Shown: piece after piece, positions 20,848-62,400 of the stretch
Layout of the letters: each line of letters begins with the position of its first letter
How positions within the stretch are numbered: the stretch's first letter is position 1
Source of the DNA: Antedon mediterranea
Lineage: Eukaryota > Animalia > Echinodermata
Direction: 5' to 3'
DNA: 64,000 nt
Assembly: GCF_964355755.1 (NCBI RefSeq)
Contig: NC_092676.1
Coordinates: 30,003,499-30,067,498, forward strand
Notes under the pieces: model-generated
Told to the model about the DNA's origin: nothing
What the model saw: the letters and a program-made list of their open reading frames with translations, nothing else
Databases searched by the model: none
Made by a program: the position numbers and the translations under genes

Positions 20848-21849
<1,002 letters not shown>

Positions 21850-22262: not shown

Positions 22263-22328
22263 GTTTCGTCGGGCCTCGTCGTACGGACGGCGCTGTATGA
22301 GTTGTATACATACACATATATTTCTTAC

Positions 22329-29577: not shown

Positions 29578-30001
29578 CTATTTCAAAATAAAAGAAAACG
29601 AAAATTATTATTTTTTTACTTACGATTAAATTAAGAACCATGGTTACCCGGATTCAAATTATTCAATTTCTTCCAAAAAAATAGCAAACGTTGTAAGAAG
29701 CTTCTTAATTGATTATATATACAAATAAAGAAACTAAAAAAGGACTAAATTCAAGAAAGAAATACCAATTAAACAGTCAGGGGATTTCCTGGTACAAGTA
29801 TTCAAGTGGCACTTGTTTGCAGTATGGAAGGAAAAATATGTTTACCTCCATGTTTGCAGTAAGCCCAAACTAAACTTTAGAAACATTTTAAAGAGAATAT
29901 TTTGTAATACAGCATCTCATTTATATAATTTCTTCGGAAATAGATTCAGTACCGAGAAAAACACACTTATTAAAATATTAGTTGAATTAAAATAATGTTA
30001 C

Positions 30002-30224
30002 CTATAGCAGTTGGCTCTAAATCAACGAAGATTGCTCGTGGGACGTGTTTTCCAGACTCTAGTTCGTTAAAGAACGTTTTACAAGATGAGTCGTCGAGTT
30101 CTATAGTCGTTGATTTGCGTCCATTTGCGTCTATACCGTGCTCAAGACAATACAATTCCCAGCATGCATTGCCTGTCTGTACCCCGGCTTGCCCAATGTG
30201 AATAGATAGACAATCACGTTGAAC
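30002..30224 (-). CDS. Alpha-tubulin-like paralog, first located coding exon (N-terminal region; 223 nt like its homolog)
   Basis: (VQ)[72 protein letters not shown], donor ATAG|GTAACA. The 5' boundary (acceptor tgatag| at 30225-30226) and the position of the ATG are uncertain. Confidence 0.65.
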
Positions 30225-36200: not shown

Positions 36201-37484
36201 ATCACAACGCGATCGATTATCCGAACTGTGTGTAATTGGTCAATTAACCTGCGTTGCGCGTACGACATTGCGTTCTTAGTGAGTGGGAACTACGAAGTAG
36301 CTCAAGTAGTATGTTACGCCGTGTGTGTCAAAATATTTTACGAATATTAAGCCGAATTATGAACTTAAGAAGTAAAGTGTACTACTTACTTACAGACCAT
36401 TAACGAATGTGTACTAAAACGACGCCCTGAATGCTCAGGGAATAGACTTCAGTATATAATTCCATTCTTTTGTGGACACAACCCTCAGTGCAGGTAAGAT
36501 AGATAATTTTCAGTATTGTTTATTGAGTTGTGGTGAGGTTCAGGTTCTTTTTTATTCTTTTCTGTCTGTCTACACTATCAAACTTTATGTGACAAAAAGG
36601 TGTGATGTGCCCATATATGGACATGATGATGTTATATCACTATCATATTTAGGCATATCACTACCATATTTAGTTGTCAAATTAGTTTGATAGTGTAGAC
36701 AGAGCTTAAGACTAATTAAACAGTTGTCATTCCCTGCAGGGCAACGTTTGACATTTAGTACGGTATATATGAAGTGTTACTCCATGATTGGATTCTGCGT
36801 TTACGTTATTTCTGACTCGACGATTGTGATTTTTTTAAACAGTTTGTTAAATAGTTCAATTCCTTTGGAGATGGCTAAAACTAACATACAACAAAGCTTC
36901 GTAACGTTAGGACTACTTGATGAAATTGAAGACACATTTGCTGTCCTAGAAAAAGCATTACCTCGATTATTTCAGGGGGCTACTGCTGAAATTGTTCGAC
37001 GCCAAAGTATGTAATCTCAATTATATTATAGTTTAACAAGTATGATTATTTTAATGTATGAATGGTGAATAGGAGGATGGCACGCCTACTTAAAGCGTGG
37101 TTTCCACTAGAGACGTGACGCGCGCAAAGACTGTAAGCGCAACATAGTGATTTGACCAATCACAAGCGATGGATCCGAACTGTCGCTTGCGATTGGTCAA
37201 CTCGCTTGCGTTGCGTCTCTCTTGATAGTATAAGTACCGTCGTAATAGGTAACTTGTATAATATAATTATTTCTGTTCAGTTGCGTTCAACTGTTAAGTT
37301 GAGTTATTTTATAATTTTTTCAGAGCAAAAGAAAAACAAACAATTTCAAACGAAGTCTAAAGTGATGCCAACAGAGGAAGTCAACAAAATTCTATTAAAA
37401 GAAATGTATTGGGAATATCAATTATACGATTATGTAAAAGAACGCTTAAAAAATCAGAAGAAAACTCTGGGTATCAAAAGGTGA
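33265..37484 (+). CDS. Heparan-sulfate 2-O-sulfotransferase / uronyl 2-O-sulfotransferase (HS2ST/UST)-like type II membrane protein; 8 exons, ~385 aa
   Basis: Exons 33265-33418 (MDKLSKIVILLVIYSIFMSIGYI signal anchor), 34094-34317 (basic stem; alternative donors at 34374/34431), 35315-35458 (EERIIFNRVPKCGSRTVLDIFKYLANRNQYN = 5'-PSB motif of HS2ST, cf. IIYNRVPKTASTSF), 35752-35831, 36025-36157 (RYINIIRDPIDRFISEYYFIRFGDD, cf. [25 protein letters not shown]), 36396-36493 (IIPFFCGHNPQC, cf. QIPFFCGHSSEC), 36843-37006 (LGLLDEIEDTFAVLEKALPRLFQGATAEI, cf. VGVTEELEDFIMLLEAALPRFFRGATEL), 37324-37484 (stop TGA). Phases are consistent; the exon 4/5 boundaries rest on a GTAAGT donor and tag|C acceptor and are less certain than the rest. 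Confidence 0.75.
34262..34432. repeat. 57-bp tandem repeat x3 that is both coding (19 aa, in frame: MHYLPLGSTFDTNTVSC) and carries a GTGAGT splice donor in every copy
   Basis: Unit atgcattatctacctttaggcagcacatttgatacaaacacg|gtgagttgt. The 3' end of HS2ST-like exon 2 sits in copy 1. Confidence 0.85.
34455..35115. repeat. 50-bp minisatellite x13 in HS2ST-like intron 2 (unit ttacatactatataatgaatttaggtattacaccaaacgttttgaatgtta, some copies 48 bp)
   Basis: Direct reading; overlapping ORF-track peptides (NLGITPNVLNVITYY…) are artefacts. Confidence 0.9.
36562..36708. mobile_element. MITE family A copy in HS2ST-like intron 6
   Basis: tctgtctacactatcaaactttatgtgac…gtttgatagtgtagacagagctt. Confidence 0.75.
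37090..37235. mobile_element. MITE family B copy (diverged) in HS2ST-like intron 7; another partial copy at 36180-36300
   Basis: gtggtttccactagagacgtgacgcgc…ttgaccaatcacaagcgatgg…cttgcgttgcgtctctcttg. Confidence 0.55.
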
Positions 37485-38460: not shown

Positions 38461-40998
38461 GGGGAGAGTGGGGTTGGTTGAATCGGAGGCAGGTTGAATC
38501 AGCCGTATTATTTCAGAAATTACAATTGGGTAAAAATTTGGTTGAACTACCTGGCAATTGGCTGACGTCACTCTACACGCTCACCAAAAATTATTCCGAT
38601 ACACGCTTGTTAACCTATTGTTCTAAAAATCCAGCTCGATTTGTGCCTGTAAGTACATTTTCCAATTTGTAAAGATTTTCGTTTTGTTTATTTATACTGA
38701 TTGTTTTTCCTGAAATCTTTAGTAGTCTTATATAACACATATATTAGGGTAAAATATTATATGATAAGCTTCTTGGTTGAGCCACGTATTTTTTTTCTAT
38801 GACACGAATTAATGCTGTCTGTGCCTATGGGGTTGGTTGAATCAGGTGATGCAACCTACCCCATCACGTGATGCAACCAACCCCAAGATAATAATGTGCA
38901 TTGTTTATGTTAATTTATGTAGTTTTAAACTTTTTCAACTCAATAATAGTAACTATAGAAATGTTCTTATACAGAATAGAAATTTAAAGATGTAAATTGT
39001 AAGAAATTAAACTACAACTACACTAGGCCTAGCCTAAAATTACAGTATTATTATTATTAAGTATTGTAAAAATATAAATAAACATCTTTCAAATAATTTA
39101 CTGTATTACTATAGGCATAGTTATTAAAATTAAATGATGGAGGCTACTATAGCCTATAGGGCCTAGTATACGACTGCCAGCGCTACCTATTTTTTTGTTA
39201 ATTCTAATGATCTTTCGTTTGCATTTTTCAGTTATCAACATACAGTCATGCCTAGAACTCATAAGAGAAAAACCGAACGGGGGAAAAACCCAGAAATGTT
39301 AAAACGAGCAGCACGAATTGTGATATTGGAGAACCTGTCTGTAAGATCAGTGGCAAAAGACTTTGATGTCAATTACAGTACACTCCAAAGACTTGTCAAC
39401 AAACTAAAGAAAGGTATGGATATTAAAATGTATGAAAATATAATAAGGTATTAAAATATTACTATTAGCTAACTGTATACATTAAACTATATTTTCAGAT
39501 GCCGATGGTGCTTTGAATTACCCTCTTGAAGTGACAAGAGCATTAACTGACACACACGTTGGATATGTCCGAAATCGACAGGTGTTTAGTGACAACCAAG
39601 AGGAAATGCTGGTTCAATATATATTGAGAGCTGCTGCTATGTATTTTGGTTTGACGCCGGATGATGTAAGGAAGTTTGCATATGAGCTAGCCATAGCATA
39701 TGAAGTAGATTTGCCACAAAGTTGGACTGAAAACCAGAAAGCAGGGAAGGATTGGTTTTGTTCTTTTTTGAAGCGTCACCCAAATGTTAGTATAAGAGCT
39801 GCAGAAGCGACAACTGATCAACCAGAAGCAGAAGATGAGCCAATTGCAGAAAATGAGCCAGTGGCAGAAAACGAGCCAGTAGCAGAAAATGAGCCATTGG
39901 CAGAAAACGAGCCAGTAGCAGAAAATGAGCCAGTGTCGGAAGATGATTTTGAAATTCCACCACCTATCAATGCAAGTCAACTATCAACACCCAATGAAAT
40001 TTTAGAGGATGAACCGTCCACATCTGCTGCATGCCGAAGATTGCCATTTAGCCCGGAAACTATTCGGCCATTTCCAGTTGCTCCACCAAGAAAAAACAAA
40101 GGCCATGGCAGAAAAACTTTAAAATCTGCAATTCTGACCGACACCCCAGAAAAAGAGGCAATAATGAAAAGGAAATCTGCAAGTAAAAGTAAGGGTAAAT
40201 CAAAATCGAAGTCGAAAACGCCAAACAACACTCAAAAAGAAAAACCAAGTAAGGAAACTGACTGGTATTGTGAAATTTGTGGAGAAAGCTACTCAAATAG
40301 CAAACAGGGAGAAAAGTGGGTAAAGTGTTTAGCGGAGGGTTGTGAAGAATGGTCACATGTGGAGTGCACCGAAAATGGACGCACATTCATTTGCTCGGTT
40401 TGCGAGTAACCAGTTTTTCATGTAAACATAAACATTTACTGTATATACTTAATTACATTTTTTGTTGTGCCAAGTTTGTTCCTGTAATTCTAATATATTA
40501 TTTTAAACAACTCAAATAAACAACTTAGGCTAGTTAAAAAGCCTAACTCTTTAAACAATTCATATTTATGTTATGGTGCTTTTTACGTGTAATAATAACT
40601 AACATTTTAAAAACATAATAGTGCAGCAGCTTTATATATCAGGAAATAGTTTTTTTAATAGTAGTTTATTAATTAATATATATTTGTTATAATGTGGTTT
40701 TCATCTTAATAAATAAATATTAAAGATATCATTGTATTTATTACATATTATTTCATGATTCAACCAACCCCACTATGTGATTCAACCTACCCCGATGAAG
40801 GGGTTGGTTGAATCGGTCGACTCATCTTGGTAATTTGCTTCTAACTTCTAAATATGTTTTCTGATGTCCATATAATTCACTGTGTTGCCTGAAGGAATGT
40901 TAGTGAACATACACTGTTAATTACAGCTTAACCAATGCAACCAAAAAAAAATTATGGTCAAAAATAGAAAATTTGATTCAACCAACCCCACTCTCCCC
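38461..40998. mobile_element. pogo/Tigger-like (Tc1-mariner superfamily) DNA transposon derivative, 2538 bp, 24-bp perfect TIRs, TA target-site duplication
   Basis: Left end TA|GGGGAGAGTGGGGTTGGTTGAATC (38461-38484); right end GATTCAACCAACCCCACTCTCCCC|TA (40975-40998) is an exact reverse complement. Subterminal hairpin copies of GGGGTTGGTTGAATC at 38825-38885 and 40755-40830. Internal ORF encodes CENP-B/pogo-type DNA-binding domains. Confidence 0.7.
39248..40409 (+). CDS. Element-encoded protein, 358 aa, 2 exons (39248-39413, 39499-40409): psq-type HTH + CENP-B/Tc5-type HTH, acidic EPVAEN repeat, C-terminal C4HC3 (PHD-like) zinc finger; no DDE catalytic domain
   Basis: ATG 39248. MLKRAARIVILENLSVRSVAKDFDVNYSTLQRLVNK (psq HTH). 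Donor AAAG|GTATGG, acceptor ttttcag|AT. RQVFSDNQEEMLVQYI…LTPDDVRKFAYELA…QSWTENQKAGKDWFCSFLKRHPNVSIRAAEATT (HTH_Tnp_Tc5/CENP-B). Six 18-bp repeats GAGCCAGTAGCAGAAAAC. Ends WYCEICGESYSNSKQGEKWVKCLAEGCEEWSHVECTENGRTFICSVCE*. Confidence 0.7.
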
Positions 40999-44400: not shown

Positions 44401-47400
44401 AAACTCTCCAATTACAGGATGGATAAACTATTACGAATTATCATGCTTATAAACTAAGTCTCATTTGAAGCTTAAGCTTGGTTCCCACTAGAACGTAACG
44501 CAAGGACGTAAACGCAACGCAATCGTTTTAACCAATGACAAGCGAAGTTATAGACAGTTAGCAATCACAAGCGAATAAGCCATCGCTTGTGATTGGTCAA
44601 TTCACTTGCGTTGCATTACGTCCTTGTGTTGCGTCGCTAGTGGGAAGGAACCACGCTTCAGGGAGTGGAGTTGAAAAAGGTGTGAGTTAGCTACAGCTCC
44701 ACTATTTGGCAGAATATTTTAAATAAAATTCAATGTGGTGTTTTTAAGCTTTACATTTACTGTCCATTGTTATGATCTTTTAACATTTCTACCTTAATTA
44801 TAATTTTTTCAATTTAGTGACAGAGGAAACAGCATATGAGCGGCAGTATACATACGACAGTACGATCGAGGAAGATGAAAACGGTTGTGTGCGTGTACTC
44901 ATGCGTATCAAACCAATTATTACAACACCGCCACCAACGTACAATCCATACAAAGCTTTACGTAAGACAGAAAAGTACATAAATGCGAAGACTTGTATGA
45001 ATGCAAACACTACAGGATTCTACACACAACCTATTCAGCCAATTAATTGGAAAGATTTCAATATTACAATTTTGTTCACTGGTAGGCACATTTATTCTGC
45101 AATATATAAATATTTACCAATTATTTACATTGTTACAGGGATCTTACAGAGAAAAGTAATTTTCTGTAGTCGCAAGACCCTTTGAAAAAATCGTATTATC
45201 TTAACTTGAGAAAAAAGTGTCTGTTTGACATGAATATAAATAATAAAATCAAATTATTTGCATTTTTTGTTTACAAATATCATAATTGATCTTGTTTTAA
45301 CTTTAAATTTGTAGGTGAAATTTTCAACTATGTTGAAGTAAATCAAGTTTTAGTTTCAGAAGTTTATGTAAACATAACACAAAGTACTAAACTCATTAAC
45401 CAAATAAGACGTGTATTTGGTAAGTAAAGTTTTTAAACTTCTTTATCTCTTCTTTAATAAATAAGTTCAGTTTTAGGATAGAATTGTTTTGATATTTGAT
45501 TTTCCGTTAATTTGTTATCTTTCTATGAGACAGGCACCATTATTTCCACTTGTTTTGTGAATGAAATAAAGTTAACTTATCTTAGAAATATAATTTCTTA
45601 ATGTTTTTAAATTTTTAGCCATTCAAAAAATACCAATAAAAAGACCAGGTTACTGGGTATACAACAATCCAACATTTTCCGATCGTAATTTCACCCTGAA
45701 ACATGAACAAATACTTCACCACGGTGTTTTGATCCACCCCGAAGCGTTCAACCGCGGTTTCACCATGACGATTGATGTTCCAAAGGTTGATGATGTATAC
45801 TTGGCCAAATTTGAAAACATCACACCATGGTGGAAGACGGGAAAACATTTTGCAGCGATATCAGATTACCATATGTTTAATTCAACCTATAATACAAATG
45901 GCGACGAATTAACTTTGGAAACTGTAATAGATAAGATGGAAGGTTATTATGATGGGGATAGCAGATTGCCAGATATCACTTCTGAATGGGTTGTCGAACA
46001 AAATGATTACGGAGAAGAAATAATTGTTCAGTGTATATTTTCCGTCACACCATTTCTCAATATTAAAGATGTTGTTTGGCGCGACCACGGAAGATTAAAT
46101 TTTTATTTGTATTCTCGAGTTCTTTCATCAGTGGTGGCTGATAATGAGCTTAAATTTTCTATCACAGCCGATTTTAAGTTCCCACCAGGAGATGAACTAA
46201 TTCTGTATGCGTCTAGGACGAGCACCGTGACTGTTCAACCGTTTGTGCCACGTATTCCGCCAGTCAATGCCACTCAGGAACCAGACTGTCAAGATGACAT
46301 CACATATACTTTTGAATTATTCAACATTCTGGAATTTTCTATCAAGGATATCTGGATGAACGTGACTTGTCCCGATTTAGTTATCATACCGTCGACGCTT
46401 GAAGTTGAAATTATTCACCATGTTAATGTCACAAGTGATAGCAACGCTGATATCATGCTTACTACAGATCAAACATATCACATACATTACACAGAGTTGG
46501 CTCCTCAAGTACTTGCAAGAGGGCAGCAGACATTTCGACTGGTCAACAACGGTATTGCGCCGCATTACTCCATTGTTTGCAAAGTTTATCTTTCATTTCG
46601 CAAGGATAATAAGGCGTTAGTCCTTCCATATTTGGCAGGTGTCAGTAATGAACTGTTTACACCTGGCATTGAGTATATTTTATATGGGCGTGATTTAATT
46701 GAGAAGGAGGAGGAAGTTATGATATTGACAACACCAATGAGTAGGACTACTGTGTTGTTAGGAAATGCCACAGCTGAAATTCCTATTATGGTGGATGAAG
46801 AAGTAAGTTATGGCGTGGAAGAAGAGACAACACCTCTAATGTACTCGATGCCTGTTGGGTCAAATGCAACATTCATTATAAATATAACAGTACCAGAAAT
46901 AACCACAGAGGTCAGTGGTAAATAGTAGTAGTACTGTAAGATCTATTTTCCAATGATGCACATGTCTAAAAAGCTCTGTCAAATCAAATTAGTTTGTGTG
47001 CCCAAATATGCTAGTGATATGCTTAAATATGGTAGTGATATGCCCAAATATGCTAGTGATATGCTTAAATATGGTAGTGATCAGATTGCATTAACATTTA
47101 TTTGGAACAGTCCTAGAAAAAAGGTAAAAAACAAGCATATATTTACAATAAGTTAAATGAGTTACATCATAATATCCATATATGGACACATCTCATTTTT
47201 CTTGTCAAACTGGTTTGATAGTGTAGACAGAGCTCAATTGTTAAAATGTACTTTTTAAATGTTGATCTTGATTTTATTTTGTGTATATTAATTATACAGT
47301 AGTAGTTTTTAATTATGCAAAAATGTGTCATTATTCCTTCTATTCAATAAGATTTCATCTTTTTTTAGATTGAAATTTATTTTGGTATGCCAGCAGCAGT

Positions 47401-50400
47401 GTTAGCTGTCTATTATTCCAGAATCATATTTATTGGTGGAAATATAATAAACCTGGATATGGTTGATCTTGAGAAAGGAAGCGATATCATGGGTAAGAAT
47501 GGACACAGTGCTTGACTGTTAGGAGCAGAACAGTCCTTCAGGCCACCCATATTAAAAGGACACCCCTATTAAAGGGACACATGTTCCCACATTGCTGCAG
47601 GTCTTTCTGAATTACTGTATATGAGCCTCCCCCACATGATTATTTCATTGTATTTATCCTGTATGTTATTATATTGTGGTAATAAAATTAAATTGAAATA
47701 TTGATTGGTAAAAATCACAGAAGCCTGATGTTAAACTATAATTAGAACCCTGAAAATTGAACCCCATTTATTTTGTATTATTTGAATGTATTTCTTTAAA
47801 GAATCATGGGACATGACTACCAGAACAAACTTAAAACAGAAACTGGGAAACTTAACCAATATTGCAGATAATTTAAGAAACGAAAGTGGTAAGTTTCCTT
47901 AATATTCTTAATACAGCTACATCATATCATGTTATGATGCTTGGCTACCAATCCAAGGGTCCTGGGTTTAAGTCATATATGTTAGGATTTTTTCTAATGA
48001 CAAATTACAACTCCACTCCCAAAGACTTGTAATAAGACTTATGTCTATACTTAGATTAGTATATTCTTTATTTTCTCATAGATAACATTGTTCTTGAGTT
48101 TAATGTTGTACTCCTGGATGAAAAAGAAACAGTTGTAAAAGATACAGAACATGAGTTTAAGACAACTGTGATTTACACAAATGGACAAGACTTAGTACAG
48201 CAACAGAGTGTAGCAGTATTAGAACCTGACATCCAAGTGTATTTGAGAGTAGCCAATGAAAGCACAAATGCAGATCCAGGTAATGTACTGACATTACTAA
48301 TATGTACTCACTTTTCCAGCTCACATACATGTTAGCATTCTATCATTACTAATAAGTACTCACTTTTCCAGCTCACATACATGTTAGCATTCTATCATTA
48401 CTAATACGTACTCACTTTTCCAGCTCACATACATGTTAGCATTCTATCATTACTAATACGTACTCACTTTTCCAGCTCACATACATGTTAGCATTCTATC
48501 ATTACTAATAAGTACTCACTTTTCCAGCTCACATACATGTTAGCATTCTATCATTACTAATACGTACTCACTTTTCCAGCTCACATACATGTTAGCATTC
48601 TATCATTACTAATACGTACTCACTTTTCCAGCTCACATACATGTTAGCATTCTATCATTACTAATACGTACTCACTTTTCCAGCTCACATACATGTTAGC
48701 ATTCTATCATTACTAATACGTACTCACTTTTCCAGCTCACATACATGTTAGCATTCTATCATTACTAATAAGTACTCACTTTTCCAGCTCACATACATGT
48801 TAGCATTCTCTGCATGTTGTCATAAACAAACACTTGAATATTCAAGAGTTTTAGGTGAACAAAATTATTATTAGTGAAATATTTCAATTTTTAAAATGTT
48901 CTGTTTTGTTTATTACTGATAATTGTTAATAAATAAAAAAAATATGTTTTAAATGCTGTATCAAATCTGTAACTTTTTATATAGGTTTAAGTTGGCTTGT
49001 GAGCCATAGACCTTTCTTGTTCAAACATCATTATTGAGCACCTTTAAGTCACTCTACTCAAAACTCACATTTTCTGATGTTTTTGGCTGCTCCAGGAGCA
49101 ATGACTGGAATGGATTGATTGATGGAAAAAAATAAGTGAATGAAAATGATTTTGACTTTTTTGTACTAGGTGAAATCTTCCAGTATTATATAAAAGTAAA
49201 TCACACGTCAGTATCGCAGTCACCAGCCCACCACATAAATGTTACCATCCATCTACCATATATGATCATAAACAAACACTTTCTGCCTTATGAATATTCA
49301 AGAGTTCCAGTCAGAGGTAAAAAATTTGAACCAGGCTTTGAATATGAAAATGATGAGATTTTGCTACTGTACCTCTATAAACTAGATTTGGATGAAGTCA
49401 TCGAAGGAACATTTCTTGTGCAGATAACAACGAAACTTATGGAAGGTAAACTTAAAATTTGTGAATATGTTATGAAAAAAAGAGAAAAAAAAGAGATATT
49501 AAACTTTTTAAATTGTATGATGTCAATCATGACGTAATTTTGTACTTTATACTAAGTAAGTATGGGGGAATCAAGCCCATCCTCTACCTCTATACCACCA
49601 AGCCTGCCCTGATGGCTAGGGGTTAGATTTTCGAATCAAAGTATAAGCAGCGTTTTGTTTAAACTGTCTACACTATCAAACCAGTTTTACAAAAAAAGTG
49701 TAATGTGCCCAAATATGGTAGTGATGTGACACCACCATGTCCATATATGTACATTTTTTTGTCACATTTTGCAGGTATTTGTTTACAAGCTCAAGTTAAA
49801 TACGAAATGTCTAGTTTCTACCAGTGGGGGCGGTACTACCCTTACACAACAGTAAGTGAAAATGTCCTCAACATTCGCAATGCAACTCTTAAATTTATTG
49901 GAACTTCTCTTCACGATACTCCTGACAAATTGGTTGCCATCCATGAGCAAGTTACATACAGAATTACCATACCTCTGCCTCCAATATCCAGCAACCTAAC
50001 CATAGAGATATTCCTACCTACACGAAATGTAACACGAAAGATCTGGGAAGTCTTACAAATACAAGAGGAGATTCCAGAGGTCCTGCCAATCGAAGAAACT
50101 TTTTTTGATAATGGCTGCTATACTGTGATGAGACCATGCTTTTGTTATGGAGCTGGAAATATGTCTTTCGATGCCAGCTGGTTTATTTCGCGATTTACTT
50201 GTAAATTGAAAACTGACCAGATGTGTACCAACTCGACAGATTTGGACACCGGAGAAAGCAACATAACAAATTGTGATTACTCACCAGATGTGTACAGCAA
50301 ATGTCGAAATTTATCTAAAGAGATGTGTTTCCAAAATGAAAATGTGACCACTTATCTACAAACTCCAATATCACACTTTCAACAGATGGCTTGTAATATG

Positions 50401-53400
50401 TCAAACAGTACTATGAATAACAACGGTACAGCATTTAACCATTCATCCTCCTTTCCCTGGAATTGCACAGTTCATCGAACAGAGGCAGACTTATGTCACG
50501 AGTTCTCCACCAGTTTCTGTGAAAATGCACTATTTACTGAGTGCAGTTATTCTGGGGTTCCTCATCATCACAACGAAAGTGAGAGTATGAATGTTACAAA
50601 ACTTCATCTTGACGATTATATCGGCAACTGGAGTTGTGCTTGTTTAAAAGAAACTGAAGAAGGTAATCTAATTTTGTTTCATTTAGATTTAAACCCAGGG
50701 GCACAGAGCATGAGCAATATAATGTAACTACCCAGTAAGGCCTCTTAGGAGTGCTAAACCAGGGGCCTTAATTGCCCCATGTTTTAAGCCACTGTTATTA
50801 GTAATCTGATATTGATGATGATTCATGGTATATTAATTCACTCAACAATTAAAATCATACACGACTGACAATCATTATGTAATAATTATTTCCAATCAAT
50901 TCTTAATCTTGAAGTAGTCATGTCTCGGGACTATTCTATAGCCACCACGGATAGACTTTCTTCATCACATGCTTCTATGAATGGATGACTTTTGGGTGCA
51001 GGAACTCTAGTCAATCAAACTCAGTACCATTTTGATTTCATGATCATTAAAAAAATTTCCTCATCTAATTATTTCTAATAAATTCTTAATCTAGAGATTC
51101 AAGATGTAAAAGATCCATTTGAAGGTTTAAATTTAACAGCCATATTGGAAGGACACTACAACGCATCCAAGAAGCCATATCAGGTTTGCTCCTCATTACT
51201 TGCCAACAAATCGTTGCTAGCAAAACCCATCAAGCCTTCTGATGAACAACCTTACCAGAATCTATCGTCATCAGATCATCAGAATCTAACAGAAGATGAA
51301 GGATTTTATCCGATTCCAGATTTCTGCTTTGAAGAAACTATTATTGAGCTAGGAATGGCAAAGGTTGTTAATACTTCAATTGTAACAACAAGAGAGGGAG
51401 TTATTTGCACTTTTACAGGTGGAAATAATCACAATCCTCACCAACCAGGTGAGAATAAGTCTGTTAACTTAATTCAAACCACTTTATATTAAGTTCTGTG
51501 GAATACTAAATGCATACCTTAAATGTGTTTCTATGTAATACCCATAACTAAGCACCTGAATGTCTAGGTACTCCTCATGAAACCGCCTGTAGTGCATTAT
51601 AACGTTCAAGTTATATTACAACCTTTGACTATTTCTACCTAAAATTTTTATAGCTGCTTTTTCTTGAATTTTTCGTTAAAATATAAATCTTTTATATTTG
51701 TAGGTGTTAAATATAAGGCTATGAACCTACCAGGCTTTGGGTTAGGAGGCGATTCGGTATCAGTATATGTTACCATGGTGATATCTGACGAGGTAGAGAA
51801 TGTCCGAGATGAGACTCTGTTTATCAATGCTTCATCTACTTTCATGTACTTGAACATACCAATACCGCCACCATTGAGGTACGAAGAAAACTGCACATGC
51901 TCAAAGCCGCTTACACACTATTTTGACGTTGACTACCCACTTGACTGTGGATGTGAGTCGATGTATCTCGTAGGTCATAAACGCGACCTTTGTAACTGTA
52001 CAACAACATTTCACGAAATCGAAGAGTCATATTTTAGTGCGCCCTCATGTGATTGCGTTAATTTCTGCGAGAATAATGTACAATACTTCTTCAATCAACC
52101 AATGGTTAAGAACCTGGCAGACTTTGATAATGCAACATGTGATTGTGGATCGTATAAGGACTTTTCAAATTCACAGAATAACTTTGATTATTTATCAGAA
52201 TGTCGAGAGATGTATTTTAGAAATTACACTTGTCAAAATGTCAATCATACTGTTAAGAAAACTGTGGAGGAATGTCGGAATATTACAAGCAAGAACTGCT
52301 TAGAGGTCAATGAACTACAAGATATAAATGTTGCCTGGTTGTGTCAATGCTCATCTGACGGTCTAAACTGTTCCTGTGAATTTGACAGTTTTCCGTTGTC
52401 ACCAAACTTTGCAAATTACTCCATTGTTGAATGCCAGAATATGCCATGGGTTAAAACCAATGACGGTTATAACGGTGACATTTCATTGTGTGATTGTCAC
52501 ATTACAAATGGGTCTCCTGCAAAATCTTGTCACTGTTCTGGAGTTTGTTCAATACATATTACAAATTCATGTACTGCATACAATCACACATTTTGTGAAG
52601 ATGTCACACATTTAAGAGAATATCTCGTTAATGATGGACTCTGTATTTGTGAAAAATTCTATGGGTCAAATCATACCATTCAAGACGCTTTAAGATTATA
52701 TAAATACCATAATAATACCAAAATAATTTTGAAAAATCAAACCATGAACGGCATTGAAGATAGTCAGTTTAAAAATGGAACGTTTTTAAATGTCACAATG
52801 TCAAATTCCACAGCTACTAATGCCAATGAAACCACTCAAGTTTTGTATAAAGATCAATTGAGCTTGGATGACTTTGTCTTGTACTGTAATTGTTCAGATG
52901 TAGATATAATCATTCCAGATATCAAACCAGTACAATGTAAAGAGATCGCACCAAAAGAAGTCTTTGTCTGCCAGTGCTTCGTGCCGGCAGATAACGAAAC
53001 TCAACTAATTTTAGACAATTGGGATTATAACTTGACAATTGTTGACGAAGCTGTAACTTACCTTGGCGACGAGTTTGTTGTTATTGAACCCGAGTTAGAG
53101 ATATCATTTGTACGTATTGAACCGAATCCGGTTGATATCGTTGATAGTTTAGACTTTGTGAAGTTTGGATATAAGATCCAGCACACTGATTCATCCAATT
53201 CACCAGCGTACAACTTGACCCTATTCCTTGATGCTGTTAACTTTACCATTACAAACGGCAGCGGTAAAGTCTTACCGACTGATATTTTATCCAGCCGTTC
53301 CTGCTCCGATGAAACTCTTTGCGAAATCTCTTACGATAATGAGGTCGGACATTTCCATTTAGGATTTCTTCCAGTAGATGTAGACGGTGCTTCCTTTGAA

Positions 53401-56400
53401 GGCACGTTCTCTTTAGCTCTCCGAGATGATGTTGATTTCGTTGCCAACAGTATCATCAGCGGAACAGGAATCCTATGGTATGATAGCTGTGTTGTAGACT
53501 TTCCTGGTCGTCTGTATGGTCCAATCAATTCCTCAGACATCTGCCATATCTATGCACCAAACATCACTGCCAAACTAGAATTCACCACTGCGTATGCATA
53601 TATGTATCAAAATGAAGAGTATGGCATACCAAACACTTTCTCCATTGGTGACTATGTTGACATTCGTGCACATCTGTGGGTTCCTGAAATCACGTTAAAT
53701 GTTGCTAATTACAGCATCAGTGGAGATAACATGTTCTCTTTCACACCAGTGATGGCGGTGATGTTGTTGACGGACAGGATCTACGTAAGAAATGACACTG
53801 CCACATTCTTTCTAGATCAGCGTCACAATCCGCATGATAATGAATTCCACATTCTCTATCCTGATGAACAGTATGACACAGCGGAATTCACAGACAAGGG
53901 AATTGCGTTTATACCAGGTAAACAGATTATGAGTTTAATTTTAGAGTATATTAAGCTCTTTCTGCACACTATCAAACTATTTTGACAAAGAAAAGTGTGA
54001 TGTGCCCAAATAATATGCCCTAATAATATGGTAGTGGTGTGACATCAGACTTTGTTTCCTTGTACTAGTCCCATATCCCTTTATAACGTTACACCATATA
54101 ACTCTTTTAAACATTTATGACTGTTTTTGTTTTAGGTGTTCTAGTAAACCAAGCAGATAATATAGCATCACCTGAAGATTATCTCCTGTTAAAGTTCATA
54201 TTTACTTTAAAAGATGACCCACTCTGGAAACAAGATGACATCATACCCTTCACAGTATCTGTTGTATACTACAGTGATTATGACGGACAACTTTTGACAT
54301 TGATTGACAAGAATGTTGAATTAAAGGTCGTTGAACCCAGACTGACACTTAGAGTTGAGGTAAAGTCTAATGTGCAGTTAAAAATGCTACTGAAGTTCAT
54401 TATATACTGTGCCATCATCAAAAACATTCACCTACCTTTTTTGTGTTTTAAAATTTAAAAAAAAAAAAAAATACAGTGGCTTAAAAGCTATAAGCAATCA
54501 CTATGGCTAAACCCAGAAACCCTAAAGGTTAAGTGCTCCCAGAGTATGAGCAGCCCAATGTAACTACCCAGCGTTTGGGGTCTTCTCCATGGCTGTTCTT
54601 AATCTTTACTATTTGACTTTCAGATTCTTGATTATAAGTGGCAGGTTGAACAAGTACAGAACACAACAGGTTACACTTGTGTAGAGAACACTTGTTGTGA
54701 AGATGGTGAGCCTTGTGATACAGGCCGTGTGTGTGTTACAGACTCTTCTGATATGGACAATTGTGAGACTCACAGGTACTCCTGCACCACATACTCCTAA
54801 TACAATAATTTGTCTAAAGCTCTCTCTACACTATCAAACTTTATGTGACAAAAAATATATGGACACATTTGATGTCATATCACTACCATATTTGTGCACA
54901 TCACACTTTTTTTATCAAACTAGTTAGATAGTGTACATAGAGTTAAAATGTATTCTGCAAATATGTCTTGTTTAACCCTTTTGCATAAAAATGTATATCT
55001 GCTGTTTAAAAAAATATCAACACTATTCCATTCCAGGTGTTTATGCTATTCTGGATTTGCATTGAATGCTGAATCCACCTGTACTGCTGTGGGACGTACT
55101 GCTGGTGATATACTCGTGTTTGGACTGACTGTATTTCACAGCCAAGAATATACTGGTTAGTAGGCCTAAATAGTGAATTGAATAGATTGCAAACGAATTC
55201 AGTTGATTTTAAATAAATATTTTCATTTCAGGTAATGCATTTGATCTTTACATAACGTTATACAGTGACCTCAAGTCTGACCTTCTACCAGATACTGACA
55301 CAATGGGTCACATCCCTACAGATGGTTACCTTGGTAATGTAAGGAAACCACGATTAACACAAATAAGTGACCACGAATTTCAACTTTATGTTCATCGTTT
55401 TGATCATGTAGTGAGCTGCGAACGTTTTACAGTGCCATTCAGGATTAAGCCTTCTTTACATGTGTTTGCAGGGCAAACTTGGGAAGTGGAGGTAAGATTT
55501 TTGGCACCAGTCTACCTATCTAAGCTTGTGCTTATTTACCAGCCTACTAGATCTCTTAGATCAGGTGGCTAATGTCTGCTAGTAGACTAGTACATCTACT
55601 ATGGTGGACAAGCTTTTGGTAGCAGCTCCAATGTGGAATTCCTTACCAATTTAAATCAGACAGTGTGCTACTTTAAACTTTTAGACCCAGTTGAAGTCTT
55701 TCTTTTTCAAGTTATTGCCATCTATTTTAATTTATGTACAGCGCATTGAGAGCTTGCTATATGCGCTACAATATATAAGAATGAACTATTATTTATAATA
55801 AGTTGTCTAGATTGTGAGGACCAACATTTACATGTAATGAAATATTCTTTTTTTTGTAGGCAACAATGAATTACCGTTCTTCTAAGCCGTATGACACGCC
55901 ATTCAACATTAAATCACGACTGTATGACATGAAAGACATGAATGATACAATCCGATTCCCATTATTCGCTCCAGCCCCAAGTGTTCGCTTCAAAATGTTA
56001 CCATCAAGTGGTCAATCTAGCCCAATAAATTTTGAAGTTTTCTCTTCTTCTATGGCTCAAAATGAAGTCATGGTGAATGTACGAGAAGAAGATAAAATTG
56101 TGTTTCAGGCCGAAGTTGTTATACCAAAGATTAAGTGCAGTATGACTTTTAAATTAAATCTACCAGAAGGTAAAAGATTACTTGATTACTTCTTAAGTCT
56201 GGAACCATAATCCATATTTAAGACTACATTGATACATTAAGTATAATAAAGAAAATCAAATCAGTTCATTGAGTTCTTCATTTTTATCCATTTCTTAGGG
56301 AGTGGCATTACACTGGAAAATGTTACCATGGTTTCCATGGGTACTGCAATAGATTTTCCGGAAACTAATTTTGGTGAACCACAAGTGACAGAAAGCATTG

Positions 56401-59400
56401 ATGGACAAAAGTTCTTTTTTGCCTATTTTCCTGATATACACAGTAAAGCAAACACATTGAATACTCCACGGGTAATGTTATTTTAATTTTTTTTTAAATA
56501 TTTCTTTTCAAAATTTTCATTTTCAAAATATATATGTACTGTATATTCGGCAATAAGTGTTGACAAATTTTACCCTTTTCTGTACTATATGCTGTAGTTT
56601 TTTTCCGAAAAATATGTTAAAAGTTGTTAATTTATATACTGATATCAAATATTACAAAACAAAAATTTGTGTTTTTAAGTCTTTAGATTCCACCAAGCAG
56701 CAAATGTTCAAGTCAATGAACGGAGAACAGCAGCCGTACCCAACAAACCCAGAATGCAATGCTCTCAATTCCAGTTTATACGAGCAGACAATTCTTCTAG
56801 GGTGTTACCATAATAAAATGTCTTACTTTGGCGGTTTTATAACAGACATGCACCCATCTTTACCTTTCTACAATCTATCTCAAGTGATGACAAGGCAGTT
56901 GTGTTTGGATCATTGCAGGTAATGATTCTCATAGACTATATTTCCAACTTCTTCATTGTCATACTATCAACAATTGATTATTGATTGACAGAACTATGAG
57001 GCCCACTAGCTAGCCTACTGTAAAGTAGTGGCTGCGTGTGTGACAGTGGCTGAACTAGTACACCGGGGTAACCTCCTACTCGTCTTGAAAAATGTACTGG
57101 GTTCTTTAAAGTGCACATGAGTTAGATGTGTACACTGGACCTATGGTTTATAGTTCCTTATCCGAGAAGACTCTACTCTACCACCAGAACCATGGAGCGA
57201 GTGAGCCTCGAATGTGTTTTAATCTCTCTGCCAGGTCACTCGCTCAACATACATACATGCTATCAAGAATCTACCAATAAAACTCCTTTTTCAATCAATA
57301 AAATCAATCAATCAATGTCTTGATGAACTTTCAAATCAGTAATAGTGTGTATTTATACTTCCTAGTGATAGAAGATATGATTATGCAGGCCTGCTGAAGG
57401 GTGCTATCTGTTTGTGTGGGACTGAAGAGCAATTCATGCAATACTATCAAAATAGAACATTTGAATTGAATGGCACTTTACATCATGCAACCCTTGATCA
57501 TTGTAGTACACTCTGTACAGGTACATAAAGCTCTGTCTACACTACAACCCTTGATCATTGTAGTACACTCTGTACAGGTACATAAAGCTCTGTCTACACT
57601 ACAACCCTTGATCATTGTAGTACACTCTGTACAGGTACATACAGCTCTGTCTACACTACAAACTAGTTTGATGCAACCCTTGATCATTGTAGTACACTCT
57701 GTACAGGTACATAAATCTCTGTCTACACTACAACCCTTGATCATTGTAGTACACTCTGTACAGGTACATAAAGCTCTGTCTACACTACAACCCTTGATCA
57801 TTGTAGTACACTCTGTACAGGTACATACAGCTCTGTCTACACTACAAACTAGTTTGATGCAACCCTTGATCATTGTAGTACACTCTGTACAGGTACATAA
57901 AGCTCTGTCTACACTACAAACTAGTTTGATGCAACCCTTGATCATTGTAGTACACTCTGTACAGGTACATAAAGCTCTGTCTACACTACAAACTAGTTTG
58001 ATGCAACCCTTGATCATTGTAGTACACTCTGTACAGGTACATAAAGCTCTGTCTACACTACAACCCTTGATCATTGTAGTACACTCTGTACAGGTACATA
58101 AAGCTCTGTCTACACTACAACCCTTGATCATTGTAGTACACTCTGTACAGGTACATACAGCTCTGTCTACACTACAAACTAGTTTGATGCAACCCTTGAT
58201 CATTGTAGTACACTCTGTACAGGTACATAAAGCTCTGTCTACACTACAAACTAGTTTGATGCAACCCTTGATCATTGTAGTACACTCTGTACAGGTACAT
58301 AAAGCTCTGCCTACACTACAAACTAGTTTGATGCAACCCTTGATCATTGTAGTACACTCTGTACAGGTACATAAAGCTCTGTCTACACTACAAACTAGTT
58401 TGATGCAACCCTTGATCATTGTAGTACACTCTGTACAGGTACATAAAGCTCTGTCTACACTACAAACTAGTTTGATGTGTCTACTGTATATATGAGCACA
58501 TTGCATTTTTGTGTCATAAAAAGTTTAGTGTAGACAGAGCTTTAGACCAGGGAGTTGTAAAATTATTTTACAACTCCCTGTTTAGAAATACTTAGTTTTA
58601 TATGTTAATTTGACCAGGGAGTTGTAAAATTTTACCACTCCCTGATTTGACATCCTAGATTTTTTTCATGTTATATATTTCAAAGTAAAAGTTTCTCTCT
58701 TTATTATTATTTTTTTTAAATTTCTTTTTTATAGTTCTATTATCAATTTATAATATTTTAGAGGACATAAATATTGATTGTTTTATTGAATTTCGTTCTT
58801 TTTTTAAAATGTATGTATCACTATGATACATTCTGTTTGGATTATCTTTTTACGTAACCAATTACATTGTGAATGTGTGTGTCTTTTAGGTGAAAATGCC
58901 TCTTGTGGGTCGATGGAATTTGCTTTACTGTATGGTCCAATACCTGGATCTGTTCCTAAACAACAATGTGACTGGTATTCAGGATTGTATGATGAAACTG
59001 AGGTATAGCAATTGTCTAATCTGTAAATTTGATTATATCATTATAACATAATATAACATTGATAACAGCACAGGTATTTAATTATATTAATATTCGATAA
59101 ATTTAATTTTTAGGATGTGTTTGTGGTAGAATTCAGTTTATCAATTCATTCATTGGCTACTAAGGGTATAGAGGAATACCTACACTTACAAGTAACATAC
59201 GATCATGGAGAAAACAAAACAAGCACACTTCTACCGTTAGCCCCCTATAAAATAGAGGTATGCACATTTATACTTTCACTGAGGACGATCGAAGCATATT
59301 GATAGAATTTAACTTTTCAGAACTGCATACGTGGTGTACTGCATACGTGGTGTACTGCATACGTGGTGTACTGCATACGTGGTGTACTGCATACGTGGTG

Positions 59401-62400
59401 TACTGCATACGTGGTGTACTGCATACGTGGTGTACTGCAAACGTGGTGTACTACATACGTGGTGTACTGCATACGTGGTGTACTGCATACGTGGTGTACT
59501 GCAAACGTGATATTACATTTATATATATCTTGGTATCTTTATTTATATACACATAATAAAATGCATTTTTTGCATTTTTTACAATAAAATTACAACAATA
59601 TTAAAATGACATAAAAAACTTAAAATTTATGTATTTATACTGTCTTTGATAGTGAAATTGTTTATGTTGATAGATCTGATTAGACTTGAACTTGAACTAC
59701 ATTCATAATAAAATGTCTTTATTTGTAGACTGGAATAGTTAAACTTTTGATGAATGTTTATGTATCTCCAAAAATGAGTGGCTATGTTCCAGGGTATGTT
59801 ATTTTACATTATTAATACAAACATTTATAATGTGTTCTGCCTTCAATATACTGGAGGTATACAACAACATTAAAAAACACTTCTATTTTAAAGTACTATT
59901 TATTTTATAAAACAAAAACAAAAATTCCATTTTTTATTTTATTTTGAGACAAGTTTTTTACTTCGTAACCAATGATGGCATTCCTTTCTCTTATTTAGCT
60001 TTTCTTGTTTTTGTATTGTATTACTGTTTCTTATTGTTTATTATTCTTGTATTATTTGTCTTACCATTATAGAATATAATATATATATATAGTTTAAAAT
60101 TTTACCAAATAATATATTTTAATTTTTTCAGCGATTATTTAGAATATTATACAGAGGTTCGTCATGCTGCTCATTCAACCGTGACTGCGAGGGATGTTTA
60201 CATTTTGTGGATGTTGCCTAGTTACATAGAGTATGTAAATGTAACCAATCACCCATCACTACCATTTACATATAGACACATTGAAGATGTTGAGAATGTT
60301 GAAACTGACCCTAGAGTTGGAATCAAGTTTTATGTAAGTGTAATAAAATTGAAAATAGAGCATGAATACAAATTTATGTGTTACAAGAATGTATTTTGTA
60401 CTGTATATATTTGTACTGTCTTTCTTTTCTATTGGACAAAGTTGCAGTAACTATAATATACTATGCCTTAATAATACTACACTTATCTACTTTTGTTACT
60501 GAGAAGTTAGTTATCTTAAAAATGTTTCAATTAACTGTACCTTATTTTAATAAACTGCACAATTTGTCAATAAACTGTACAATTTTTCAATTAACTGTAC
60601 AATTTTTCAATTAACTGTACAATTTTTCAATTAACTGTACAATGTTTCAATTAACTTACCTTCTTTTAATAAACTGCACAATTTGTCAATAAACTGTACA
60701 ATTTTATAATTCACACTACAATTTTTCAATTAACTGTACAATTTTTCAATTAACTGTACAATTTTTCAATTAACTGTACAATTTTGAAATTTTTTGAAAA
60801 TTTAAAAATGTTTAAGTAACTGTACACTTTTTCAATTAACTGTACAATGTTTCAATTTTAACTGTGTTGTATATTCCTCTTCAGTTAAAATTAATCTAAT
60901 TTGTTTTTGTGACAGGTGAAAACCTTATTCCATGATGACGTGATAGGCTTTCACTTTATGGTGAGACTGGACCCACTTCACACCCTTCCACAGGGAGAGT
61001 ACCATTTGATGTCAATGACACAGGTGTATTATGACTCTTGGGGGATACACAACCATTTTGAGGAAGACTACACGTTTGATGTTGTACCCCATGCTCATCC
61101 TGTTGTACCTATTAAAATTACATTTGAAGGTAAATTCATTCCATGTCTTTAAGTTGAAAGGGAGCTTGTTTAGATAAGTTAACATTTGCTGTTGGAACAA
61201 TCAATAATGTGTTATTTTGGTTCTATTATAGTTCCATCTAAGTATTCAGGACGTGAACAATTGGATGGTGAGAAAGATTTTTTTATAAATTTCTTGTTTG
61301 TTATAGGATATTACATATATACAGTTTTCTTGTTGAATATATTTTTTTTTTTTTTTTTACAGATATTAAATTATCAACCTATAATGTTCTGTATGATGAG
61401 ATTAACAACATTGTGTATGCTTGTTTCTTCAACAATACCATTAATGTGTAAGTTGATCTATATTAATTGAAATGTAATCTAATTCAGAAATTTAATGTGC
61501 TATACTACTTTGCTTTAATACAATAATACAGTTATACTTATGCTATAGTATAATAATACAGTTATGCTATAGTATAATAATACAGCTATGCTATAGTATA
61601 ATAATACAGTTATGCTATAGTATAATAATACAGTTAAGCTATAGTATAATAATACAGTTATGCTATAGTATAATAATACAGTTATGCTATAGTATAATAA
61701 TAAAGCTATGCTATAGTATAATAATACAGTTATGCTATAGTATAATAATACAGCTATGCTATAGTATAATAATACAGTTATGCTATAGTATAATAATACA
61801 GCTATGCTATAGTATAATAATACAGTTATGCTATAGTATAATAATACAGCTATGCTATAGTATAATAATACAGTTATGCTATAGTATAATAATACAGTTA
61901 AGCTATAGTATAATAATACAGCTATGCTATAGTATAATAATACAGTTATGCTATAGTATAATAATACAGCTATGCTATAGTATAATAATACAGCTATGCT
62001 ATAGTATAATAATACAGCTATGCTATAGTATAATAATACAGTTATGCTATAGTATAATAATACAGTTATGCTATAGTATAATAATACAGTTATGCTATAG
62101 TATAATAATACAGTTATGCTATAGTATAATAATACAGTTATGCTATAGTATAATAATACAGTTATGCTATAGTATAATAATACAGCTATGCTATAGTATA
62201 ATAATACAGCTATGCTATAGTATAATAATACAGCTATGCTATAGTATAATAATACAGTTATGCTATAGTATAATAATACAGCTATGCTATAGTATAATAA
62301 TACAGTTATGCTATATTACTGCTAAAGCTATGCTAAAAAACTTATAGTTTTTTTTTTCAGTTATAAAGGTGGTTGTTTCATGACTGGAGATCTTCCATCC

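What the first reader, a model, noticed from the sequence alone, without database searches (positions are those of the whole stretch)
49661..49780. MITE breakpoint coincides exactly with a splice acceptor of the giant gene (possible MITE-derived acceptor)
A family-A MITE copy lacking its right TIR ends …catttttttgtcacattttgcag, immediately followed by exon 15 (GTATTTGT…). The polypyrimidine tract and AG used as the acceptor therefore appear to be MITE-derived or MITE-adjacent sequence. Either the MITE contributed the acceptor, or a deletion removed the MITE end together with the ancestral acceptor region.
Basis: seen in the sequence. Interest (0 to 1): 0.55.

Follow-up and report, generated by a model that had tools for sequence, protein, structure and literature searches.

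The report
Truncated MITE beside an ancient splice acceptor
A broken copy of a small transposon lies 7 bases upstream of an exon in a feather-star gene and now occupies the T-rich part of the splice signal, but the splice site itself is hundreds of millions of years older than the transposon, so this is an ordinary case of a mobile element sitting in an intron.

Summary
A ~142-bp palindromic MITE family has about 12 loci in the window. The copy at 49663-49767 (+) lacks its right ~26 nt, including the right TIR. It lies just upstream of the acceptor cag|GTATTTG (exon starts at 49775). Homology stops at 49767, so 7 nt (TTTGCAG) are not MITE. The window is Antedon mediterranea, and RefSeq XP_071957041.1 uses exactly this junction (…KLMEG|ICLQ…).

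The same intron, at the same codon and in the same phase 1, is present in Ptychodera flava (hemichordate; tttacag|GTATTGC) and in an unidentified ENA assembly (tttgctag|GTGTTGC). A fourth contig shares the donor. None of these loci contains the MITE. The AG and the exon boundary are therefore ancestral, and the MITE did not create the acceptor.

What is MITE-derived is positions -8 to -112. This includes the T7 tract and probably the branch point. Its pyrimidine content is typical of this gene's acceptors. The most likely history is a lineage-specific insertion followed by a deletion that removed the right TIR. The exact insertion point is unresolved.

Under neutral placement, an element end this close to an acceptor has about a 10% chance. 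This is a known kind of event, of low interest. A second juxtaposition in the same gene is more curious: a tandem array of exon end + donor + MITE terminus at 57485-58477.

The parts
49170..49445 (+). Phase 1 at both ends. Ends …ATGGAAG|gtaaac.
   Evidence: Frame analysis. Its translation is in XP_071957041.1 residues ~838-929. It is homologous to exons in L001, L002 and L003 that have a donor at the same codon.
49446..49774 (+). Intron of 329 nt, phase 1. Its position is conserved across Ambulacraria.
   Evidence: Best-scoring GT..AG pair for this junction. The orthologous introns are 184 nt in Ptychodera flava (L001 22112-22295) and ~780 nt in L002.
49663..49767 (+). 3'-truncated MITE copy (c49). 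It covers family-model positions 8-116 of 142. The left TIR is present; the right ~26 nt, including the right TIR, are absent.
   Evidence: nhmmer E=1.6e-26 with high posterior support up to 49767. 92.3% identical to the consensus. No remnant of the right TIR lies downstream: 58% (local) and 37% (anchored) of random windows score as well.
49750..49767 (+). MITE-internal T-rich segment TACATTTTTTTGTCACAT, now at -25..-8 of the acceptor. It is the presumed polypyrimidine tract.
   Evidence: Identical to the same segment of intact copy c12. Positions -22..-8 hold 11 pyrimidines and 9 T of 15, against means of 10.3 and 8.8 for the 12 modelled acceptors of this gene. Function as a tract is inferred, not shown.
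49768..49774 (+). TTTGCAG: the last 7 nt of the intron. Not MITE. It is the retained end of the ancestral 3' splice site.
   Evidence: Matches the family consensus continuation AAAGTTT at 1 of 7 positions. Orthologues have TTTACAG (L001) and TTGCTAG, within tttgctag (L002), at the same place. The same (T)nGYAG shape is seen at other acceptors of the gene.
49775..50424 (+). The end shown is the RefSeq one. The ORF stays open to 50724 and a good donor exists at 50662.
   Evidence: tblastn of XP_071957041.1 residues 929-1145 gives 100% identity to 49774-50424. The exon start is collinear and gap-free in the three-species alignment, with the junction Gly invariant.
57485..58477 (+). Related feature in the same gene: a tandem array of 57- and 72-bp units (15 copies of the exon-end peptide). 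Each unit is the last 34 nt of a coding exon + GTACAT donor + the left terminus of the same MITE family.
   Evidence: TRF, sequence, nhmmer hits to model positions 3-36 in the units, and 15 in-frame copies of TLDHCSTLCT.
58445..58544 (+). MITE copy with both termini and an internal deletion, closing the array. Its intact left end lies at about +6 of the repeated donor.
   Evidence: nhmmer model positions 3-141; sequence.

Best explanation
The acceptor at 49774/49775 is an ancient, conserved 3' splice site of a large, fast-evolving extracellular-type gene of the crinoid Antedon mediterranea (XP_071957041.1). A MITE of a family still ~86-96% similar among its copies entered this intron in the Antedon lineage, long after the echinoderm-hemichordate split. 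The copy later lost its right ~26 nt, the right TIR, by deletion. The most parsimonious version is a single deletion running from inside the element to a point 7 nt upstream of the exon, which would also have removed any ancestral intron sequence in between. As a result the YAG and the exon boundary are ancestral, while everything from -8 to -112 is MITE sequence. The element's internal T7-containing stretch now sits where the polypyrimidine tract must be, and the branch point most likely lies in the MITE too (candidate GTGAC, with its A at 49729). The arrangement is tolerated because that stretch is as pyrimidine-rich as this gene's native tracts.

Shown: the family; the truncation and its breakpoint; use of the acceptor in the RefSeq model; conservation of intron position and phase; and absence of the MITE in the orthologous loci.

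Inferred: the order of events, the extent of the deletion, and that the MITE tract actually functions in splicing.
For: Family and truncation.

No right-TIR remnant downstream.

Junction and phase.

RefSeq protein contains …TKLMEG|ICLQAQVKY… and matches the window at 100% over exon 15.

Ptychodera flava orthologue (L001): exon ends ACAACAG|gtatgag, intron of 184 nt, acceptor gaaatttacag|GTATTGC, same phase, and zero MITE-model hits in 40 kb.

L002: ACAATGG|gtaagaa … tttctttgctag|GTGTTGC, no MITE.

L003: donor at the same codon.

Three-species protein alignment is gap-free around an invariant junction Gly.

The MITE-derived tract has 11 Y and 9 T of 15, against acceptor means of 10.3 and 8.8.

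c49 is 92.3% identical to the consensus, like the other copies, so it is young relative to the intron.

About 5 of 12 loci are truncated, so truncation is routine in this family.
Against: No close relative (another crinoid) could be examined. The timing of the insertion, the empty-site sequence and the extent of the deletion are therefore not observed.

The three comparison loci are very distant (46-53% amino-acid identity over exons 14-15). The similarity of TTTGCAG to their 3' splice-site ends could reflect splice-site consensus rather than descent.

No RNA-seq was available here. Use of the acceptor rests on the RefSeq (Gnomon) model and on protein collinearity.

A 4-nt deletion reading would let MITE homology run to 49771, leaving only CAG outside the element.

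Branch-point assignment is by motif only.
Confidence: 0.8

Rival explanations
1. The MITE created the acceptor. On this view the AG, and so the exon boundary, come from MITE sequence: either a degraded GATAG of the right TIR or an AG generated at the break.
For: With a 4-nt deletion and one further indel, CACAT[AAAG]TTTG[A]cAG can be threaded onto the consensus CACATAAAGTTTGATAG (anchored alignment). The intact element carries several AGs downstream of its T tract.
Against: That threading scores no better than 37% of random windows. The intron position, the phase, the junction Gly codon and the GT(A/G)TT exon start are identical in Ptychodera flava and in L002, which have no MITE. The boundary therefore predates the element by hundreds of millions of years. 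For this rival to hold, an AG at the very same nucleotide would have to have been replaced.
Confidence: 0.03
2. Same end state, different route. The MITE inserted directly into the 3' splice-site region, about 7-10 nt upstream of the AG and possibly into the old pyrimidine tract. It then lost only its right TIR and its duplicated target, or it inserted already truncated. On this view no ancestral intron sequence was deleted.
For: The left flank ends …GCGTTTTGTT-TAA. Joining it to TTTGCAG gives a plausible acceptor, cgttttgtttaatttgcag|GT. In the same gene another copy of the family, with an intact left terminus, sits at about +6 of a donor. So the family can land within a few bases of a splice junction and persist.
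Against: The left flank is not more pyrimidine- or T-rich than 41% and 26% of intronic 15-mers, and it is below the mean of real acceptors. A full-length insertion at -7 would have put ~28 nt carrying five AG dinucleotides between the T tract and the true AG. That would probably have caused mis-splicing until the deletion occurred, and two precisely placed events are less parsimonious than one deletion. The family's target-site duplication could not be resolved, so the empty site cannot be reconstructed exactly.
Confidence: 0.3
3. The acceptor actually used, always or alternatively, lies inside the MITE. The in-phase AG at 49683-49684 (accag|TTTTAC) would add 30 MITE-encoded residues, because the exon-15 reading frame is open from 49663.
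For: The frame is open through the whole MITE copy. 49685 is the only other phase-compatible AG without an intervening stop (and direct reading).
Against: The RefSeq model does not use it. The orthologue alignment has no insertion at the junction. The sequence upstream of 49684 (…taaactgtctacactatcaaaccag) contains no T-run comparable to the T7 tract before 49775; this is from reading, and that site was not scored.
Confidence: 0.05

Closest known systems
Transposable-element sequence supplying 3' splice-site signals (antisense Alu poly-U tracts as polypyrimidine tracts in primate exonization; Sorek 2002 and Lev-Maor 2003, cited from my own knowledge; see also PMC8460874, listed)
   Same: A T-rich stretch carried by a mobile element lies immediately upstream of an AG and sits where the polypyrimidine tract should be.
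   Different: In Alu exonization both the AG and the new exon are TE-derived and the exon is usually alternative. Here the AG, the exon boundary and the exon are ancient and constitutive. Only the tract, and probably the branch point, have been replaced by TE sequence. No TE sequence enters the mRNA at this junction.
MITEs associated with alternative 5'/3' splice sites and exonization in plants (mulberry; PMC6593561)
   Same: An intronic MITE lies at or next to a splice site. That paper reports MITEs at ~0.45-0.5% of alternative-splicing sites and says alternative 3' and 5' splice sites are the predominant MITE-related modes.
   Different: That work is transcript-based and concerns alternative splice sites created on MITEs. 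Here there is no evidence of an alternative site, and the organism is an echinoderm.
Ordinary intronic MITE insertions decaying by internal or terminal deletion
   Same: c49 has the same divergence (92%) as the other copies. About 5 of 12 loci in this window are truncated at one end.
   Different: The only difference is position. The truncated end is 7 nt from an acceptor, a zone usually protected from TE insertions and deletions.

Membership tests
MITE (the family as a whole) | Terminal inverted repeats | tested here: met
   Arms of 15-24 nt, 84-100% complementary, in six copies. Examples: 36565-36584/36684-36703 at 100% and 12384-12407/12523-12546 at 92%.
MITE (the family as a whole) | Short (<~800 bp), non-coding, multicopy | tested here: met
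   Consensus of 142 bp. About 12 loci in 64 kb on both strands, inside and outside the gene.
MITE (the family as a whole) | Target-site duplication diagnostic of a superfamily | tested here: inconclusive
   Flanks are TAA/TAA (c12) and TTA/TTA (c54), but ATA/TTA (c15) and TAA/TTA (c58). TA, TWA and TTAA all fit some copies, so no superfamily is assigned.
Intact MITE copy (c49 itself) | Both termini present | tested here: not met
   The model alignment stops at position 116 of 142. The downstream sequence does not resemble the right TIR.
TE-derived splice acceptor / exonization | The AG dinucleotide and exon boundary originate from the element | tested here: not met
   49768-49774 is not MITE. 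The identical intron position and phase occur in orthologues without the MITE.
TE-derived splice acceptor / exonization | TE sequence is incorporated into the mature mRNA | tested here: not met
   The RefSeq protein and the orthologue alignment show no inserted residues at the junction.
TE-derived polypyrimidine tract / branch-point region | The sequence at about -8 to -45 of the used AG is TE-derived | tested here: met
   49663-49767 is MITE. 49750-49767 is identical to copy c12.
TE-derived polypyrimidine tract / branch-point region | That sequence is required for splicing (U2AF binding or branch-point use) | not testable with these tools
   This needs RNA-seq or lariat data, or a minigene assay. 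Only the composition could be compared.
Ancient conserved intron | Same position and phase in distant orthologues | tested here: met
   Phase 1 at the invariant Gly in Antedon, Ptychodera flava and L002. The donor is also shared in L003.

The most novel reading that the evidence does not exclude
This MITE family may be a recurrent supplier of splicing signals in the Antedon genome. Its internal T7GTCACAT stretch would act as a ready-made polypyrimidine tract (intron at 49.7 kb). Its left arm, AAACTAG|TTTGAT, would act as an acceptor. In the same gene an exon end + donor + MITE terminus has been amplified into a 15-unit array, and the RefSeq model draws from it an 18-residue, Antedon-specific insertion (VHSVQFDATLDHCSTLCT). 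If transcripts confirm this, the array would be a generator of MITE-derived mini-exons. Two MITE ends within 7 nt of splice sites in one gene would then reflect targeting or selection rather than chance (P≈0.026, post hoc).
Probability: 0.15. Interest if true: 0.45.

Novelty: new member of a known kind. Interest (0 to 1): 0.2.

Why it matters
As it stands, this matters little. It is one more example of mobile-element sequence being tolerated very close to a splice site because it happens to resemble the signal it displaced. It shows that the pyrimidine-tract and branch-point part of an ancient, constitutive 3' splice site can be replaced wholesale by young repeat sequence while the AG and the exon boundary stay fixed. 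It would become more interesting only if a genome-wide survey showed this MITE family enriched at splice sites, or if transcripts showed that the array at 57.5-58.5 kb yields MITE-derived exons.

Tried and rejected
(1) A degraded right TIR hidden in the start of exon 15 (MAFFT had suggested it). Rejected: local and anchored alignment scores are matched by 58% and 37% of random windows.

(2) Insertion into the ancestral pyrimidine tract. The left flank is not unusually T- or Y-rich, so there is no support either way.

(3) A recurrent pattern with copy c53 (53955-54056), which is also 3'-truncated near model position 109. Rejected: its end is 79 nt from the next acceptor.

(4) Internal paralogous exons as a stand-in for orthologues. 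There was only weak Cys-rich similarity and nothing at the exon starts.

(5) Word-indexed homologue search with Antedon exons 14+15 gave no hits. Pfam on ten exons or ORFs gave nothing for the giant gene. Exact look-ups of the neighbouring sulfotransferase ORF and of XP_071957041.1 found nothing on record. The profile search added only the L002 ORF and one short contig, L003, which stops before exon 15. No other crinoid locus could be reached.

(6) The tRNA-like look of 49560-49640 in the intron. ARAGORN finds nothing.

(7) Superfamily assignment from target-site duplications was inconclusive.

(8) L004 (the contig for P0003) was fetched but not analysed. It covers only the big exon.

Full report
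**What is in the sequence**

The window is AT-rich eukaryotic DNA (about 35% G+C). On the plus strand, 49170-49445 is a coding exon that ends …ATGGAAG|gtaaac. The next coding block starts at 49775, after …catttttttgtcacattttgcag|GTATTTGT. Both boundaries are phase 1, so the codon G|GT (Gly) is rebuilt across the intron. In a simple donor/acceptor scan, 49445^49775 is the top-scoring pairing. It fits a run of neighbouring phase-1 introns whose acceptors share the same T-rich…YAG|G shape.

**The repeat family**

A BLAST of the region against the window gave several matches in both orientations. Inspection showed a ~142-bp palindromic element with termini (TC)TAAAGCTCTGTCTACACTATCAAACT…AGTTTGATAGTGTAGACAGAGCTTTA(GA). 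Its inverted arms are 15-24 nt long and 84-100% complementary.

An HMM built from six copies finds about 12 loci:
- Intact or nearly intact: 10074-10194(-), 12382-12548(+), 14943-15082(-), 20260-20388(+), 36564-36709(-), 54815-54945(-), and 58445-58544(+), which has an internal deletion.
- Truncated or partial: 17629-17732, 46972-47101, 47163-47236, 49663-49767 and 53955-54056.

Some copies carry extra internal ~21-nt repeats. The target-site duplication is not resolvable from these diverged copies, so I assign no superfamily.

**The copy in question**

c49 aligns to model positions 8-116 at E=1.6e-26, with high posterior support right up to …TTTTTTTGTCACAT at 49767. It is 92.3% identical to the consensus, within the 86-96% range of the other copies.

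Of the seven copies that keep the right half, six continue CACAT|AAAGTTTGATAGTGTAGAC… and c20 has a diverged version. c49 instead continues TTTGCAG|GTATTTGTTTAC…. The 50 nt downstream of 49767 do not resemble the missing 28 nt: 58% of random windows score as well in local alignment and 37% in anchored alignment.

So the right TIR is truly gone, exon 15 is not MITE-derived, and the break lies 7 nt upstream of the exon rather than exactly at it. One caveat: a 4-nt deletion followed by TTTG would move the break to 49771.

**Is the juxtaposition surprising?**

Not statistically. I placed the five intronic copies at random in the 12 modelled introns (5.65 kb). At least one right end fell within 7 nt of an acceptor in 10% of trials, and any end fell near any splice site in 19%.

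**Identity of the gene, and use of the acceptor**

The gene has no Pfam domains, and the word-indexed search found nothing. An exhaustive phmmer search with the 739-residue exon found five proteins.

The best hit, P0001, is XP_071957041.1, an 'uncharacterized protein' of 3801 aa from Antedon mediterranea. It matches the window at 100% over exon 15, the large exon and the last exon. The window is therefore this crinoid's locus. The RefSeq model contains …FLVQITTKLMEG|ICLQAQVKYEMSSFYQWG…, which is exactly the 49445^49775 junction. In that model this is about the 10th coding exon, not the 15th.

- **Ptychodera flava.** P0004 is XP_070564843.1 from this hemichordate. Its genomic locus was retrieved as L001. 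The homologous exon ends ACAACAG|gtatgag at 22111. The intron is 184 nt. The next exon starts at 22296, after gaaatttacag|GTATTGCTCTG.
- **L002.** This is an unidentified ENA assembly. Its junction reads ACAATGG|gtaagaa … tttctttgctag|GTGTTGCT.
- **L003.** This fourth, short contig shares the donor at the same codon.

In the three-species protein alignment the junction Gly is invariant, and there is no gap for dozens of residues on either side. The MITE model has no hit (E≤1) in L001, L002 or L003.

The intron, its phase, the AG position and the first exon codons therefore predate the echinoderm-hemichordate split. The MITE, whose copies are still about 90% alike, is a recent, lineage-specific arrival. 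It cannot have created the acceptor.

**What the MITE does contribute**

Everything from -8 to -112 is MITE. The segment at -22..-8 (ATTTTTTTGTCACAT) has 11 pyrimidines and 9 T of 15. The gene's 12 modelled acceptors average 10.3 and 8.8, and the intronic background averages 7.9 and 5.3. The zone where metazoan branch points usually lie, about -18 to -45, is entirely MITE. GTGAC with its A at 49729 is one candidate, by motif only. I infer that the present polypyrimidine tract, and probably the branch point, are MITE-borne. That is not demonstrated.

**How it arose**

DNA transposons insert whole, so the missing right end implies a later deletion. I favour a single deletion from inside the element to -7, which would also remove whatever ancestral intron lay between. 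It needs only one event, and survivors would be those in which a T-rich stretch ended up next to the AG.

The alternative is direct insertion at -7..-10 followed by loss of the TIR. It is not excluded. The left flank (…GCGTTTTGTT-TAA) joined to TTTGCAG would make a plausible acceptor, but that flank is no more T-rich than 26-41% of intronic 15-mers. An intact insertion there would also have put five AG dinucleotides between the tract and the true AG. Only a closer relative can decide between these routes, and none was reachable.

**A second case in the same gene**

The array at 57485-58477 consists of 57- and 72-bp units. Each unit has three parts:
- the last 34 nt of a coding exon (…GCAACCCTTGATCATTGTAGTACACTCTGTACAG, encoding ATLDHCSTLCT);
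- the donor-like GTACAT;
- the left terminus of this same MITE family (AAAGCTCTGTCTACACTA[CAAACTAGTTTGATG]).

The last unit runs on into a MITE that has both termini, at 58445-58544. An intact MITE end therefore sits at about +6 of a donor, and the exon end + donor + TIR block was amplified to 15 copies.

The RefSeq protein reads …HHATLDHCSTLCT-VHSVQ-FDATLDHCSTLCT-G|ENASC…. This requires a 14-nt mini-exon and an acceptor, aaactag|TTTGAT, that lies in MITE-derived sequence. Ptychodera shows no counterpart of the extra 18 residues in the part that aligns; the preceding exon end itself did not align. The extra peptide is thus either an Antedon-specific isoform or a modelling artefact within a repeat.

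Counting this founder copy, the chance of two or more MITE ends lying within 7 nt of splice sites is about 0.026. That is post hoc and only suggestive.

**Comparison with what is known**

TE sequence providing 3' splice-site signals is well documented. Antisense Alu poly-U tracts are the classic case (from my own knowledge). MITEs at alternative splice sites have been reported in mulberry (PMC6593561). This case differs in that only the tract and branch-point zone of an ancient constitutive site are replaced, and no TE sequence enters the mRNA at this junction.

**Verdict**

'MITE-derived acceptor' is wrong for the AG and the exon boundary. 'MITE-derived polypyrimidine tract after deletion of the MITE end' is the best-supported reading. 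It is a new instance of a known phenomenon, and interest is low (0.2).

Noticed in passing
window 57485-58477 (plus the MITE at 58445-58544): A tandem array of 57- and 72-bp units. Each unit is the last 34 nt of a coding exon + a GTACAT donor + the left terminus of the same MITE family. There are 15 in-frame copies of TLDHCSTLCT and 15 copies of the donor. The intact MITE end lies at about +6 of the donor.
   Followed up: partly
window 57460-57520, units within 57485-58477, and 58890: RefSeq XP_071957041.1 reads into the array. It has an extra VHSVQFDATLDHCSTLCT, which implies a 14-nt mini-exon and an acceptor, aaactag|TTTGAT, inside MITE-derived sequence. Ptychodera shows no counterpart of this insertion in the aligned part. 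It is either a real isoform or a modelling artefact.
   Followed up: partly
window 49663-49774: The exon-15 reading frame stays open through the whole MITE copy. A second in-phase AG at 49683-49684 would add 30 MITE-encoded residues. The RefSeq model does not use it, and the orthologue alignment shows no such insertion.
   Followed up: partly
window 50424-51275: The RefSeq model ends exon 15 near 50424 and resumes at about 51275. Yet the ORF stays open to 50724, with good donors at 50578 and 50662 and a good acceptor at 51095. The model may skip about 140 codons of coding-looking sequence, or these may be alternative exon ends.
   Followed up: no
window 12382-12548, 36564-36709, 46972-47101: Some MITE copies carry a variable number of an internal ~21-nt repeat (GTGATATGCCCAAATATGGTA-like). 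The family therefore has a built-in mini-tandem repeat.
   Followed up: no
L001 31251-40167: The Ptychodera flava annotation splits the orthologue into two gene models. The 'next gene' after XP_070564843.1 continues the homology to Antedon residues 2381-2640.
   Followed up: partly
window 20851-22520 and 28082-30224, minus strand: Long minus-strand ORFs whose translations look like alpha-tubulin to my eye (for example [16 protein letters not shown]). No family search was run on them. They may be two tubulin genes, or a gene and a pseudogene.
   Followed up: no
window 361-1117, 34060-35242, 59251-59584, 61496-62344: ORF translations are strongly periodic (for example PGTMSGLN repeated at 361-1117), which points to minisatellite arrays. 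Those at 59.3 kb and 61.5-62.3 kb lie inside the giant gene. TRF was not run on these regions.
   Followed up: no
window 39486-40406 (+): A 307-aa ORF with a Tc5/pogo transposase DNA-binding domain (PF03221, E=3.5e-07). It is probably a remnant of an autonomous DNA transposon and is not obviously related to the MITE family.
   Followed up: no
window 2624-3910 (+) and 8376-12974 (+): Neighbouring genes: a single-ORF sulfotransferase (PF00685/PF13469), and an exon at 8376-9056 with a GH65 central catalytic domain hit, followed by further long ORFs to about 12.9 kb that were not scanned.
   Followed up: no
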